Positions 6,201-12,200 of a stretch of 64,000 nt of DNA are shown piece after piece (the stretch's first letter is position 1; each line of letters starts with the position of its first letter). Made by a program: the position numbers and the translations under genes. The notes under the pieces were generated by a model. The model was not told where the DNA came from. It searched no databases and saw nothing but the letters and a program-made list of their open reading frames with translations. The stretch lies in contig CM035362.1 in NCBI GenBank assembly GCA_020137815.1, positions 2,356,001-2,420,000 on the forward strand, in the 5' to 3' direction. The DNA is from Hormiphora californensis. Taxonomy: Eukaryota > Animalia > Ctenophora.

Positions 6201-9200
6201 AGAGGGGAAGAAAAGATAAGGGTTAGGGCGTGTGCAGCTGTAGTGACGTAATGTTTATACTGTGTGTGTGTGTGTGTGTGACTAGAAAGTGTCTAATTTT
6301 TCACATACCACTGCAACGGTATTTTACTTTATAATTACTAGTGTTTTGCAGTGGTCTAAGTTTTCACAGTGCACTGTAACCGGTGGAAACGGTGCACTGT
6401 GAAAACTTAGATCACCGGTCAAAATTGTCTAATGTTAGTTAGTTAGTGTTTTTACACTAAATAATTCTCATAAAACCGTGTTTGTCAGCGTTTATTTACC
6501 TCCTAGTTGTAGTTTTTGGTAGTCTGATTCTGTCAGTAGGAACTCCGCTTTTCCGAGTGAAATTCTTCGAAGTGGCTCTGTAAGAGAGAAATATTGTGGT
6601 TAGCACCATACCAGATGGTTAATACAGTCGGACCCCGATTTACCGGGATGCTCGGGGGAAAGGGTTTTGCCCGGTAAATCGGGGTGTCCGGTATATCGGG
6701 GTCAAATACCGTTAATTTCCTAGATCGGGGGAAATTTATCCTCCCGGTAAATCGGGGTTCCGGTAAATCGGGGCCCGGTAAATCGGGGTCCGACTGTATA
6801 ACAATTCTAATAATAATAAAAAGGAAAGCTTTTGTTCAAAAGGGTACGTAAGGAGAGATGGTTGAGCAATAAGGGAATCGATCAGTTACTCCAACAAACT
6901 AACGTTTCATGGTTTTGTCGTCACACTCTGATGTCATTGCTGCAGATTCAACCGAGTCCTCAGGGGTATCCTGGGATTCACACGTCAACACATCGTTGTT
7001 GTCATGGTGACTGCTACCCGCTACTGAACCTGTGGTTGGGTTGTGATAGACTCATGGAGAACTGAACTACTTATTAGCTTGCATACTTCACCCCCCCCCC
7101 CCCCCCCCCCATTGAGACTCTAAACCCAGTATAAACTGCAATAGAGCAGAACCCTGAATATTTGGGTCCGGGGAGGAGAATACGTACCCTGTTCATTGTC
7201 AACTGTTGTAGTAGTCATGGCAACATCTCCAGTGGATTGATCAGTACTGTCTTGTTCGTATAACTCCCCTAACTCACCATCATCAATAGCTACACACCGC
7301 TCTGAATAAAAGGGTGGTATGGACTAAAAATACACTCAATTGGAGCCCAAAAGAGTGACTTAAAACATGCTAGCCCAAAATATTACGTCAGCTGCCCTGT
7401 CTTAGAAGAGTCATTATTGCCACCCCTACCCACCTCCCCTGAGTCCTGCTCTTCACATACCAAGTGTGTCTTGTGGGGCAGAATCCATTGTATCAATTAG
7501 TTCGTATAGATGGGGATCACCAGATGGTGGCGAGGAGAACAGAGGTTGAAGTGGGGACTGATGCTGTTGGAGGTGTAGGGGTGAAGTTGACTGGTAGCTG
7601 TGAGATGAAGAGTTCTGGGTATTGAGATCTTTCTGTTCGAGGTAGTGGCTGAATTGAGGACCGGTGTTGTCGTAGATGTGCTGATCGGGTATTATAGCAG
7701 AGCTGTAGAACTGCTGAAATAATGATGCAGGGTTAGAATTAGGAGAAGGCATGATGGGATGTGGTTAGGCTTGTTAGGGGTGATGGGTATCGAGACCGAA
7801 TTCATTAAAGGTTGACAAGACACCTAAAACTTTTCGTCTATCGTCTTTTTTCGATTTATCATTAATTTTAGGCATTTTTTTCAGAATTTTTCGTCGTATA
7901 GAAAAAAATTCGAAAAGTGGGGTCTGCCGACATTGTCAGCACTGGGATTACTAGGAACGCTCACTGCGTCTCGCAAATCGAAATTCGCGTTTCCGGTTCT
8001 TCATAAGATAGCGACTTGATCTTGGTTGTGTTGGGTTTCCAACGCTACCAAGACGGTTTCTGTTTGTTATATTCTAACCCTCCCGAAACACAGTCTAGCT
8101 TAGAGTTAGAGTTTTCACTTTTCACTGCATCCAACAAAATGAGTGTGATATGACTGTCAATATTGAAGACAATTAATTAATTAAACATTTCTTAGTGTGC
8201 ATTAATAATTTGAATAGTACAAATAAACATAAATAATAACATAGAGGGTCCTGTACAGATTTTCTCTTTACTATCCCAATATAACTTGATTTTCTAATAT
8301 ATTATCCTCTCTCCAGCCTTTCAGGCGAGTCCATGTTGATGTCATATTGTTCAATCCAAATGGAACTCTGGTCACTGTAACAGTACAGCTGTAGGAGACA
8401 GTATCCAACCTCCTATCTTGACATTCCAGAACTCTTCCTTCTCTCTTGGTTATGTCGCAGAAATTAGTGAGTATTTTTTATGTTTTAACGGAAGAGAGGG
8501 TTGAGCTAGGCAATGAGTGTCATAACTGAACCTGTTCCTGCAATCTTCTAACTGCGTGGGTCGACGCGATGCTAAATCTTATCCTAGTGGCAGTACAGTT
8601 TTGCCTCACTCTCCGAGACATTGTCAGCTAATACAAGATCTAATTCTTACAATTTACTAATTCAGGAACATTAACCTGTGGAACAGTAACGTGTCAGGAA
8701 CCATCTCTAAACGCGGTCGAGGAAACTCTAGCTGGTGTAGCGAGAGTGTTCGTCACCACATGGCTTATCTCCGTATCATTGGCTGTACTCTTCGCCCTTC
8801 TCAGCATTTTCCACCAGAATTGCCTAATCGCTTTGATTCGTACAAAGTAGATACCAGGATTAATCGCAGAGTTGAGCGGAATTGCAATGGTTTTCTCACT
8901 TTTGTAGACGAAATTCCACCACGTCGAAGACGGCCGTTTTCCTTCCAATCGTAATATTATGCTAACAATGCTAACGTATCCGTTAAAGAAAATGGAAGCA
9001 ATAGCTAAGATTATTGTTGTCTTGATCGCTGCTGATTGTTTAGACACCTTTCTGTCAGTTGGTCCAAGGGTCTGTTCTGTGGCTCTGATAGAGGCTAAAA
9101 GCTTAATCACAGTCAACAGTGTGCTGGTTACGAGAATAGCTACGATAGCGATAAAAACTGCAAGTCTGGAATATATGAACATAGCTTCTTCTGCATCACT

Positions 9201-12200
9201 ACTAGGGGGTGTAAATAAATATTTAGGCCACATGAAATTGTAACCAGTAACGGCATTTCCTGTTGCCATAACGACCGCGTTTAGCACAAAAACAATCACA
9301 ATTGGAGTCGGTTTGATCCTGTAAAATGGCATCCACACCCCGATAGTTCGACAAACGGACAGAATGATAGTTGCTAGTCCACTCAGCATGGCAGTAGTCC
9401 TTTCAGTGCTAAGAAGAGTAATGTATGTCACTACCCCTGCAATGTACAGTGTGCTTGGAGGTGAGTCCTGGACCTCATAAGTATCAGAAGAACGGAGTTC
9501 GTAGCGAACTACGATCCTGAAAAAGGTCGTCAAGCACAGGATCGCGTCAATAGTGTTAAGGAGAAGCAGCAAACGATTACCAAACGATCCTTTTTTCCTG
9601 TGGAAAATACACAAAATTAGCCATCTTACTAGATATATTCATTTGGATCACATGTCAGACACATTCCTTTGGAGACCGGTCAAGCTCCAGATCGGATCAC
9701 ATTGGAGGATCTGATCCCACTCACCCAAGGATCGGATCACAACTGCCCCACAACAAACAGTTTACAATTTCCTGTAAGACTGAGTCTATACCTACCGTTC
9801 TTTTGTGACAAAGTATATGAAGGTGAGGGTGTTAGTAAGAACTCCAATTAATGCAATGGCCCCAGCAGAATATGTCCAGTTGAGACTGTTGTTCGTTGCA
9901 GCAACGGAGGTGTTCAATTTCATAATGAGGTGCACTAAAAAGTGTGTTCTGTTCACTAAGACATGGGTGGAACATTATTACATCAAACATTGGAAGGACT
10001 TAATTCACGTGCAGATCGAGTTTTTTGAGCAATGTTCAAAAATATAGCTTTTTGGAAAGAGCTCAATCTCCTCTTTCCAATGAGCCCAAGGTTTTCAAAA
10101 TTGTGCCAAAAAGTTGTTTTTCGACTTCTACAAAAGATTTTCGAAAATGATTTAAATTGTACCACTATCCCAAATTGTGGGTTTTAATTCCTCCAATTGC
10201 TGAGAACTTCTCAGTGAGAAGTAAACAGATGATATGGGGCCACTACCGCGGTTACCATCGAGAGAAACAATTCCGGCAACCGCTAATGATAATTTATCTT
10301 GATGATGACATATATAATGGGTATTTAGAGTGAAGTGGGATAGAAAATCTGAGAGATAAAGGGGGAGGGATAGAAAGAGAGAGAAAGAAAGGGTGATGTT
10401 AGAACTCCAGTCTTTGATTGAAATACATAATGGACTAAAGGATGATTAGCCAGGTTAAAGTGAGAGTGGACCGAATCAGAATTGGACAAGTTTGTTGTAG
10501 GTAGTAGAGATTAGCTCTCTGAGCATTTTGCGTTTTTGCCGCTCAAAATCGACCCACCCATCACTGAGTTATATACTCCATTTTTTTTCTGTTCACCCTC
10601 CAAAGTCGTGTGCGGAATTGTTTTGCGCGTTTATCACATGTTAACGTGTATCGCATGCCACAAAATTTTAAATTTCAGTTTTTGGGGAAACAGTTGGAAA
10701 AAATGGACTTTATTTTTGTTATGTTGGGAGAACTCCTGTTTAATCAGTATTATAACAACACAATCTGCTGATTCACCCGGGCAGGGAAAAATTAAAAACA
10801 GGGACATCAAAATGTGTTTAAAGGAAGGGAGAGAAATCAGCTATATAGATCATCTGGGAATCCAAACTAGAAGAGAGCGTGCCCGAGTAAAAACGAGGGA
10901 GAGCGGACTGAATCAACAGTGGAGAGGGAGGGGGAGAGAGAGAGAGCTAATGGGACTCAGCTGATTTAGCTAAGTTTTATAGCTTTTGGAGAATTGGATA
11001 GAGGGAGAGAGGGGAGGGAAGGGCGTTGTACTAATACAAACACAGTGTTTTACAGAGTAAAAGATGGTATCACAACCAGGGGTATGGTGGTATAAATCGG
11101 CCAAATGAAAAAATAAGGAATAACAGAAATTGAAATAAAATTTAGTTTTATTTAAGAAATAACAAGAATTATTGCATTATGTATTCATATTGCGGTGTTT
11201 TCCCTGCCACATATGGATTTAAAGTTGATGAATAAGCTTCAAAACTGGATTTCCTGATGAATTTTGTGCTCAAAGAGCATTTTTTGGCTGAGGTAAGGTA
11301 ACTAGGGTATCCAAGCACGGCTTAGGAAAGTTGCATTTATGCCACAATGCGCGTCACACGTTTCATTGAAGTGGTTTATGAAGAAGCCTAGCAGGTAGCG
11401 GTGGACATGTGATATTATCCATCTATGTACCTTCGGCATTCGCCCGGGCAGGGAAAAAATGATTAAAAACAATGATAAATCGAAAAAATACGATAGACGA
11501 AAAGTTTTAAGTATCTTGATTCTTGTCAACCTTTAATAGACTACGGAAAGAAAGAAGGGGTTACACAAAAGACAGAGTTACACACAGTAGCGTGCAAGAC
11601 ATATCATGACGTGTGACAAAATGTACCTGGTCTGTTATGTACTCGTAGCTGTGTTCCCCCTGATCTTCACCCGGATAACAATCCAAACCCTCGACACCTA
11701 GAGAGTCATGAGGGGAATATAGATTTAGTCATGTGAAAATAGGTTCAGTTATCAGGCAACTTGCAGGTTATAATAGGGTAATAATACATAAACAGTCGGA
11801 CCCCGATTTAGTGGCCCCCGATTTAGTGGCACCCCGATTTAGTGGCAGGATTTTTTTCCCCGAGGATGCCACTAAATCGGGGTCCGACTATATCTCAATT
11901 TAGACCAGTGCAGAAACAAAAAAAACGCATGAAAATTTGAAAAACTGTGAAAGCAATCGCGATTCGATATTTCTTTGAAGGATCCCTCTCTCTACAAATT
12001 GAAAACAGAACGATAATGGTAGCTCGACGATCACTTTAAATCCCGTATAGCGTGCATCAATCAATCAAAAAACTGAATCGAGGGATGAGTGACGTATGCT
12101 TGAGAGCATATTTGGGAAAGATAGACAGGGGATAGTATTAGAAGATGGTAATTACCAAAAAAGAAAATATATACTGCATTCATTATTTAACCGAATATAA

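What the first reader, a model, noticed from the sequence alone, without database searches (positions are those of the whole stretch)
7805..11536. An intact GPCR gene packaged between Kolobok-type transposon ends inside a host intron
Seen: matching ~75-bp terminal inverted repeats (TTAA|AGGTTGACAAGA ... TCTTGTCAACCT|TTAA) at 7809 and 11532 enclose a complete two-exon class A GPCR and no transposase. The host intron (7714-11626, 3913 bp) would shrink to ~185 bp, the typical intron size here, if the element were removed. Known: TTAA TSDs with purine-purine termini characterise Kolobok/T2 elements, and Pack-type gene capture is documented for other TIR superfamilies. Inference: a non-autonomous Kolobok element moved an intron-containing receptor gene as DNA cargo. 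This could be a route both to lineage-specific GPCR expansion and to nested genes.
Basis: partly seen in the sequence, partly recalled or inferred. Interest (0 to 1): 0.85.

Follow-up and report, generated by a model that had tools for sequence, protein, structure and literature searches.

The report
Receptor gene between Kolobok transposon ends
In a comb jelly, a complete receptor gene sits inside another gene's intron between matching transposon ends and was likely carried there as one piece of DNA, which would be a rare case of a whole animal gene moved this way, though no second copy of the package was found.

Summary
TTAA-flanked inverted ends (7809, 11532) enclose an intact 343-aa, two-exon, rhodopsin-class GPCR and no transposase. 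The host intron would shrink to 185 bp without them (local median about 192). The window is from a ctenophore; host and GPCR lie on the same strand. The ends belong to high-copy TTAA repeats. The left junction is filled in the two samples of this organism that could be read, so the insertion is not an assembly error. The right arm matches, end to end, a free-standing 273-bp element elsewhere in the window and has its own inner end, so the two ends probably come from two related elements (a composite). The spacers inside the unit are at single-locus depth, so the package has not multiplied: a route to GPCR expansion is unsupported. An empty intron in a related species is suggested, not shown. 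Best reading (0.5): one Kolobok-type jump of the whole unit. Rivals: gene copied into a resident element (0.25); separate insertions around an older nested gene (0.2). Kolobok Pack-TIRs are published (8 cases, cargo up to 762 bp); a whole gene as cargo is a new variant. The scan's notes held no earlier such finding.

The parts
7714..11626 (-). Host intron, 3913 bp, GT..AG; 185 bp without the insert
7464..7713 (-). Host exon downstream of the intron (tyrosine-rich, low complexity); its donor end is approximate
   Evidence: conserved in organism B at about 95%
11627..11700 (-). Host exon upstream of the intron, joins the next exon in frame (phase 0); acceptor end approximate
7805..7808 (.). Left TTAA target-site duplication
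   Evidence: sequence
7809..7880 (+). Left terminal inverted repeat (starts AG)
   Evidence: summed contig depth about 240 times the flank at 7875 in X1
7881..8075 (+). Left arm interior, high-copy repeat; small hairpin at 8020-8053; 7990-8034 resembles the arms of the TTAA palindrome at 25.4-25.6 kb; right boundary approximate
   Evidence: compact relatives join 8025 or 8040 straight to an inverted TIR (joints)
8076..8693 (-). Low-copy 3' flank of the GPCR; part of it is present in organism B at 85% or more
   Evidence: bins 8209-8582, place 8413
8694..9597 (-). GPCR exon 2 (TM2-TM7, helix 8, stop)
9598..9795 (-). GPCR intron, 198 bp, containing a repeat; a related copy has about 86 bp at the same place
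   Evidence: joint 9604-9754 with 37 letters between in X1 and X6
9796..9923 (-). GPCR exon 1 (ATG, N-terminus, TM1)
9924..10454 (-). GPCR upstream region; AG acceptor-like site 11 nt before the ATG; medium-copy repeat relic within about 9900-10265
10455..10770 (+). Left half only of a second TTAA MITE family (complete copy at 22734-23206), split by a 138-143-bp insert at about 10570-10710
10771..10800 (+). Stray copy of the subterminal motif that precedes the right TIR
11152..11155 (.). Inner TTAA at the start of the right arm
11156..11532 (+). Right arm: likely a self-contained short Kolobok-type element with a degenerate inner end (ACAAGAAT at 11162) and a strong outer end
   Evidence: end-to-end match to 20862-21134 (score 41.5 vs 200 shuffles -46.6 +/- 11.4, max -4.5); motif counts
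11454..11532 (-). Right terminal inverted repeat
11533..11536 (.). Right TTAA target-site duplication
   Evidence: sequence

Best explanation
A complete two-exon GPCR gene lies between Kolobok-type inverted ends at one TTAA site of a host intron, and a Kolobok transposase supplied from elsewhere likely cut the whole 3.7-kb unit out of another locus and pasted it here. Shown: the ends, the TTAA on both sides, the intact gene, the 185-bp remainder, high copy number of the ends and low copy number of the middle. Inferred: the two ends most likely came from two related short elements that flanked the gene at its old site. The left one lacks an inner end and the right one has only a degenerate inner end, so the two outer ends were the best pair for the enzyme (a composite or macrotransposon, about 0.35). 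The lesser variant is one asymmetric element that had captured the gene and then jumped (about 0.17). The event looks like a single move that has become common or fixed, not an amplification. Because the gene lies in the host's own direction with an acceptor-like site 11 nt before its ATG, it could be expressed from the host transcript by spliced-leader trans-splicing; this is untested.
For: One-site geometry: 1 of 77 left/right TTAA pairs leaves an intron of 300 bp or less, and it is this one; 185 bp fits the local median of 192. Ends are high-copy and the middle is not: in X1 the left arm is 79-329 times flank depth at 6 places, the CDS 2.1 times (median of 15 places), the spacers 0.3-1.3 times (6 places). 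Composite: 11156-11532 aligns end to end with a free-standing element at 20862-21134; ACAAGAAT occurs 6 times in the window on both strands, and 3 of these are the right TIR, the inner end of the right arm and the matching end of the free-standing copy, while the left TIR lacks it. No joint linking the left arm to the right arm is among the 15 joints shown, whereas the unsplit form of the second MITE family (10567-10573 to 10711-10719) fills 7 of those rows. DNA-level cargo: the intron is kept, and P0003 and P0004 become alignable where exon 2 starts. No parent gene within the window (tblastn). The left junction is filled in X1, X3 and both X6 contigs. In organism B two allelic contigs run 193-194 letters past the exon where about 113 would be expected had the high-copy TIR been at the same place.
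Against: No second copy of the package with a different flank, the usual proof of transposition. 72 joints were hidden, and contigs show presence, not absence; summed depth is not a copy number by the tool's own statement. In animals most single-copy Pack-TIRs arose in place (91 of 97 primate cases had the empty element in outgroups; PMC8277862). The organism B contigs could close on the next host exon (intron 170-204 bp) or on the conserved 3' flank of a GPCR in the same intron; I could not tell which. B's depth over the bin with the upstream host exon (12.5) is lower than an empty intron with a well-covered exon would give. The free-standing relative at 20862-21134 is not flanked by TTAA. 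A half copy of another MITE family inside the unit shows that broken MITEs are common here. No transposase of this family was identified, and expression is untested.
Confidence: 0.5

Rival explanations
1. A short Kolobok element was already in this intron; it broke near the hairpin at about 8035-8056 and repair copied in about 3 kb from the parent GPCR locus (gap filling, no movement of the package).
For: This is the usual origin of single-copy Pack-TIRs in animals (PMC8277862). The package is single-copy. High-copy similarity of the left arm fades just past a small hairpin, a plausible fragile site. It explains the one-site geometry equally well.
Against: Published cargo has a median of 224 bp, at most 762 bp in the 8 Kolobok rows; here it is about 3.1 kb. 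57% of published parents lie within 15 kb; none is in the window (7.8 kb to the left, 52 kb to the right). No unsplit left-plus-right element among the 15 joints shown; the compact relatives seen join the left arm to an inverted left-type end.
Confidence: 0.25
2. The GPCR was already nested in this intron; two related elements inserted separately on either side, one later losing its inner half, and only look like one unit.
For: The right arm has its own inner end and TTAA on both sides. Another half MITE lies at 10455-10770. Organism B holds the GPCR and part of its 3' flank but shows no cover at four spacer places in the right third (10422, 10977, 11292, 11409). Nested genes with TEs on both sides are common in a related ctenophore (176 of 2357; PMC8527503).
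Against: Both outer ends would have to hit the outermost TTAA on each side, about 1 in 77 if sites were equal, and leave a typical intron by chance. No credible inner partner for the left TIR: the best match is 10 of 15, reached in 39% of random 500-nt stretches.
Confidence: 0.2
3. The arrangement is an assembly error joining repeats.
For: No contig spans the whole unit in any run laid; only the left junction was examined closely.
Against: The host-intron-to-TIR junction is present in three runs of two samples; X6 contigs link 8103-8395 and 9738-10100; TTAA and splice sites are exact.
Confidence: 0.03

Closest known systems
Animal Pack-TIRs, including 8 Kolobok cases in Xenopus and zebrafish (Tan et al. 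2021, PMC8277862; read: parts 1-3 of 10 of the text, search passages, the Kolobok rows of Supplementary Data 1)
   Same: Non-transposon DNA enclosed by the ends of a TIR family with a target-site duplication; single copy.
   Different: Cargo about 3.1 kb with a whole intact gene (Kolobok rows: 138-762 bp); parent locus not identified; the arms seem to come from two subfamilies; the term 'ctenophore' does not occur in that paper's main text.
Ssk-FB4 of Drosophila melanogaster (same paper)
   Same: Near-complete, intron-containing membrane-protein gene between TIR ends.
   Different: Ssk-FB4 is multicopy with distinct TSDs, polymorphic, probably a MULE, with peptide evidence; this unit is single-copy, apparently common or fixed, TTAA-specific, expression untested.
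Ac/Ds macrotransposons of maize (PMC9910405, passages read) and the FB-bounded composite TE of Drosophila (PMC6431247, passages read)
   Same: Outer ends of two neighbouring elements carry the host DNA between them as one unit.
   Different: Those are observed events of hAT and Foldback elements, 10 to hundreds of kb; here a 3.7-kb fossil with Kolobok-type ends, inferred from sequence only.
Kolobok superfamily and Xenopus T2-MITEs (PMC9587614, part 1 of 6 read; PMC6004289, passages read)
   Same: TTAA duplication, 5'-RR..YY-3' termini starting AG.
   Different: No DDD/E transposase or KolX; terminus AGGTT does not fit the T2-MITE AGGRR motif; ctenophores are not in the host list given in PMC9587614.
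KolobokP (PMC9587614, part 1 of 6 read)
   Same: Composite-like build in which a terminal unit has its own short inverted ends and also occurs alone.
   Different: KolobokP has long direct repeats and encodes a transposase and a nuclease; the arms here are not direct repeats.
Nested intronic genes of Hormiphora californensis (PMC8527503; sections 37 and 38 and search passages read; supplements not available)
   Same: Nested genes, often parallel to the host, often next to TEs.
   Different: The sections read count TE neighbours but describe no paired TIRs, TSDs or mechanism; 'Kolobok' and 'GPCR' do not occur in the main text.

Membership tests
Kolobok (non-autonomous) | TTAA target-site duplication on both sides | tested here: met
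   7805-7808 and 11533-11536
Kolobok (non-autonomous) | Termini 5'-RR and YY-3' (separates it from piggyBac) | tested here: met
   AG at 7809, CT at 11532; definition from PMC9587614
Kolobok (non-autonomous) | Terminal inverted repeats of a dispersed family | tested here: met
   left arm 79-329 times flank depth in X1
Kolobok (non-autonomous) | Ends shared with an autonomous element encoding a Kolobok DDD/E transposase | not testable with these tools
   no genome is held for this window
T2-MITE (Xenopus) | Terminal AGGRR motif | tested here: not met
   AGGTT at both outer ends; motif from PMC6004289
KolobokP | Long terminal direct repeats plus transposase and His-Me nuclease | tested here: not met
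   no direct repeat between the arms; no such ORF
Pack-TIR | Non-TE host sequence between the TIR ends | tested here: met
   343-aa GPCR gene
Pack-TIR | Both arms are the two halves of one consensus TE | tested here: inconclusive
   TIRs match, but the right arm resembles a free-standing element and no unsplit form is among 15 joints shown of 87
Pack-TIR | Identifiable parental copy of the cargo elsewhere | tested here: inconclusive
   none in the window; related copies at 85% or more exist (CDS 2.1 times flank depth; a copy with a shorter intron) but cannot be placed
Transposed (multicopy) Pack-TIR or macrotransposon | Further copies with different flanks, or an empty donor or target site | tested here: inconclusive
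   spacers at single-locus depth; no empty allele in organism A at the left junction; organism B suggestive only
Class A (rhodopsin-like) GPCR | Seven-helix fold with arginine at the end of TM3 and an NPxxY-type motif in TM7 | tested here: met
   R83, N246, P247, Y250 of exon 2 are kept in 90% or more of 130 sequences; hydropathy, model and fold matches; TM1 (exon 1) was not in the model
Class A (rhodopsin-like) GPCR | Pfam 7tm_1 above the curated cut-off for this protein | tested here: not met
   no hit for exon 2; closest relatives hit weakly, and P0001 passes 7TM_GPCR_Srx
Class A (rhodopsin-like) GPCR | Expression, ligand and G-protein coupling | not testable with these tools
   no RNA holder listed

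The most novel reading that the evidence does not exclude
Ctenophore Kolobok MITEs pair up as composite transposons that repeatedly drop whole genes into TTAA sites of introns, and spliced-leader trans-splicing lets same-strand cargo be expressed at once; this would be a concrete engine for the thousands of nested genes and the scattered receptor families of comb jellies.
Probability: 0.12. Interest if true: 0.8.

Novelty: new variant of a known kind. Interest (0 to 1): 0.5.

Why it matters
Whole protein-coding genes between DNA-transposon ends are rare in animals; the survey of 100 genomes names Ssk-FB4 as the first potentially functional coding case (PMC8277862). This locus has an intact receptor gene, exact target duplications and a predictable empty site, so it is an easy test case. 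How ctenophores came to have so many nested genes is open: the H. californensis paper counts 2357, 176 with TEs on both sides, without a mechanism in the sections read. A scan for paired TTAA ends around those genes would show whether this is a route or a one-off. On present evidence it is one locus.

Tried and rejected
No genome is held for the window, so ends and paralogues could not be searched genome-wide. A TIR pattern in metagenome contigs found 0 stretches; the GPCR alignment found 84 pattern matches, none confirmed. The first fold with 7 sequences failed (pLDDT 44) and was repeated with 130 of the available sequences. An exon-like piece on the plus strand (8317/8325-8466) has stops in all three frames, no Pfam match in three readings and no homologue for the one frame searched; the Atlas look-up of the minus-strand reading gave no answer; left unexplained. 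A degenerate inner partner for the left TIR at 8153 was rejected as chance. KolobokP was rejected (no direct repeats). An in-frame host-GPCR fusion was rejected by eye: the three AG sites within 32 nt of the ATG give a frameshift or a stop after a phase-0 host donor (sequence). Selection: 10 of 23 listed CDS differences are synonymous against 24% expected (p 0.03, pN/pS 0.42), but these are the best-supported rows only (525 rows hidden) and mix alleles with paralogues, so this is weak. The second nested GPCR of the window has no inverted 12-mer pair around it. Look-ups in the scan's notes by sequence and words found no similar case. Literature searches listed no paper, by title and abstract start, on a whole gene or GPCR carried by Kolobok ends, or on Kolobok in ctenophores; most subscription papers and Repbase are not covered, and the supplements of PMC8527503 could not be read and may list such loci.
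Full report
Setting. No genome is held for this window. The GPCR's closest named relatives are Pleurobrachia bachei proteins at 65% and 49% identity, and the scan's notes on other pieces of this genome also read it as a comb jelly (unchecked notes). I treat it as a ctenophore and cite sequencing runs by their codes.

The observation. The ends are as described: TTAA at 7805-7808 and 11533-11536, AG..CT termini, and an inverted match of 76 vs 83 nt at 83% with 7 gap letters. 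The score is 112 against a maximum of 74 in 1991 random pairs. The host intron (minus strand, 7714-11626) is 3913 bp with GT..AG ends and would be 185 bp without the unit. A crude model of the large neighbouring gene gives a median intron of 192 bp over 93 introns; ten hand-picked introns of the host gene itself range from about 110 to 2200 bp (several boundaries off by a few bases). The cargo is a 343-aa ORF in two exons with a 198-bp intron. Pfam misses it, but its family profile, conserved residues and predicted fold place it with class A GPCRs. Host and GPCR are on the same strand. The host is probably an ARHGEF4/9-like RhoGEF (linkage of exons not verified).

Copy number. Contigs of four runs were laid on 6900-12500 at 85% likeness. 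Summed depth is a rough guide only. In X1, relative to the median of eight flank bins, six places in the left arm stand at 79-329 times, 15 places in the CDS at a median of 2.1 times (range 1.1-7.9), and six spacer places (8413, 10190, 10422, 10977, 11292, 11409) at 0.3-1.3 times; the same places are 0.7-3.2 times in X5 and 0-2.2 times in X6. So the ends are common repeats, the gene has one or a few close relatives, and the package as a whole is not multiplied. One relative has an intron of about 86 bp at the same position (joint 9604-9754, X1 and X6). This speaks against the unit as a route to GPCR expansion, at least recently.

What the arms are. The left arm is high-copy to about 8075 and contains a small hairpin; two joints show compact relatives in which 8025 or 8040 is followed directly by an inverted TIR. 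The right arm, 11156-11532, aligns from end to end with a free-standing 273-bp element at 20862-21134 (score 41.5; 200 shuffles -46.6 +/- 11.4). Both stop matching at the same inner point, just before ACAAGAAT, a motif found 6 times in the window, 3 of them at these ends and in the right TIR. A TTAA lies at 11152. The right arm is therefore probably a complete short element with a weak inner end. No joint linking left arm to right arm is among the 15 shown (72 hidden), while the unsplit form of the second MITE family inside the unit fills 7 rows, which shows that the method can see such forms. This favours two related elements over one element split by an insert, without proving it.

Other individuals and a relative. 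Laid on 7480-7820 at 80% likeness, both X6 contigs and the X3 contig run through the TTAA into the TIR, as an X1 contig did; X5's contig stops at 7783 and says nothing. No empty allele was seen in organism A; contigs drop rare variants. In organism B (X7) the host exon is about 95% alike, and two allelic contigs of 223 and 227 nt leave it with 193 and 194 loose letters; by eye, the 30 letters shown for one of them resemble the start of this intron. The repeat family is abundant in B too, so a TIR at the same site should have cut these contigs after about 113 letters. B thus probably lacks the left end here. If the two contigs rejoin at the next host exon, B's intron is 170-204 bp, matching the predicted empty site. 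They could instead rejoin on the GPCR's 3' flank, which B retains somewhere; B's low depth over the upstream host exon bin (12.5) does not favour the empty reading. This test is inconclusive, and both laying calls are used.

Mechanism. The strongest argument for a single event is geometric: of 7 left and 11 right TTAA sites outside the arms and the CDS, only the pair used leaves an intron of 300 bp or less (1 of 77). That fits a jump of the whole unit or copying of the gene into a resident element, and disfavours two independent insertions. Between the first two, the literature prior favours copying in place (PMC8277862: 91 of 97 primate cases), but the cargo is over ten times the published median of 224 bp, no parent lies in the window, and the arms do not look like halves of one common element. 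I put a jump of the whole unit at 0.5 (composite ends about 0.35, single captured element about 0.17), copying in place at 0.25, independent insertions at 0.2 and an assembly error at 0.03. These are judgements, not computed values. The gene is probably alive: the frame and splice sites are intact and listed differences lean synonymous (10 of 23; weak, selected rows). An AG 11 nt before the ATG could accept the spliced leader, which was on 56% of long reads in H. californensis (PMC8527503); this is inference, and an unchecked note from the same genome (e1-10607436) also mentions the leader.

Comparison and novelty. The ends meet the sequence definition of Kolobok (PMC9587614) but not the T2-MITE AGGRR motif (PMC6004289); the matching transposase could not be sought. 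Capture by Kolobok elements is published: 8 rows among 370 Pack-TIRs, with parental segments of 138-762 bp. Ssk-FB4 is the precedent for a near-whole gene, and maize Ac macrotransposons (PMC9910405) and the FB-bounded TE of Drosophila (PMC6431247) are precedents for composite movement. My ten searches listed no whole gene carried by Kolobok ends and nothing on Kolobok in ctenophores; coverage is limited to open papers, and the ctenophore paper's supplements could not be read. I rate it a new variant of a known kind, interest 0.5: real, well defined and easy to test, but one locus with movement unproven.

Noticed in passing
window 49252-52612 (+): A second GPCR gene (LDL-receptor class A repeats plus 7tm_1, two long exons) apparently nested in the large Cys-rich gene, same strand; MITEs lie on both sides (inverted arms 47705-48297 and a TTAA pair 53067-53764) but no inverted pair encloses it.
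   Followed up: partly
window 2655-3238 (-): SH3 exons closest to ARHGEF4/ARHGEF9, downstream on the host strand; the host is probably an Asef/collybistin-like RhoGEF with a long tyrosine-rich N-terminus. The link between these exons and the host exons was not verified.
   Followed up: partly
window 22730-23210, 25428-25626, 53067-53764: Three more TTAA-flanked palindromic MITEs with different termini (AGTGAG.., GCGACA.., AACAGC..), so several TTAA-specific families have been active in this genome.
   Followed up: partly
window 20862-21134 (-): Free-standing 273-bp relative of the right arm, with ends AGGGGAAC.. and ..GTCAACCT but no TTAA flanks.
   Followed up: yes
window 8173-8184: Three tandem TTAA inside the unit; possibly footprints of earlier insertions or excisions.
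   Followed up: no
window 8317-8472 (+): Exon-like piece with acceptor and donor on the strand opposite the GPCR, in the flank that organism B retains; stops in all frames, no homologue found.
   Followed up: partly
window 6622-6800, 11792-11893, 13502-13690, 38310-38446: A very high-copy intronic palindromic repeat (CAGTCGGACCCCGATTT ends); its translation forms part of the N-terminus of the Pleurobrachia bachei gene model P0003, which looks like an annotation error.
   Followed up: partly
window 7480-7820: High allele diversity: the table of differences lists 32 rows over 341 bp across four runs, and organism B's two intron alleles differ from each other almost at once.
   Followed up: no
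window 8712: Related copies lack 2 bases near the stop codon, so this copy's last few residues differ from relatives that end in SSTV or SSSV.
   Followed up: no
window 25.6-64 kb (+): A very large gene with dozens of Cys-rich repeat exons (94 exons in a crude model), with a 36-bp minisatellite at 39158-39938.
   Followed up: no
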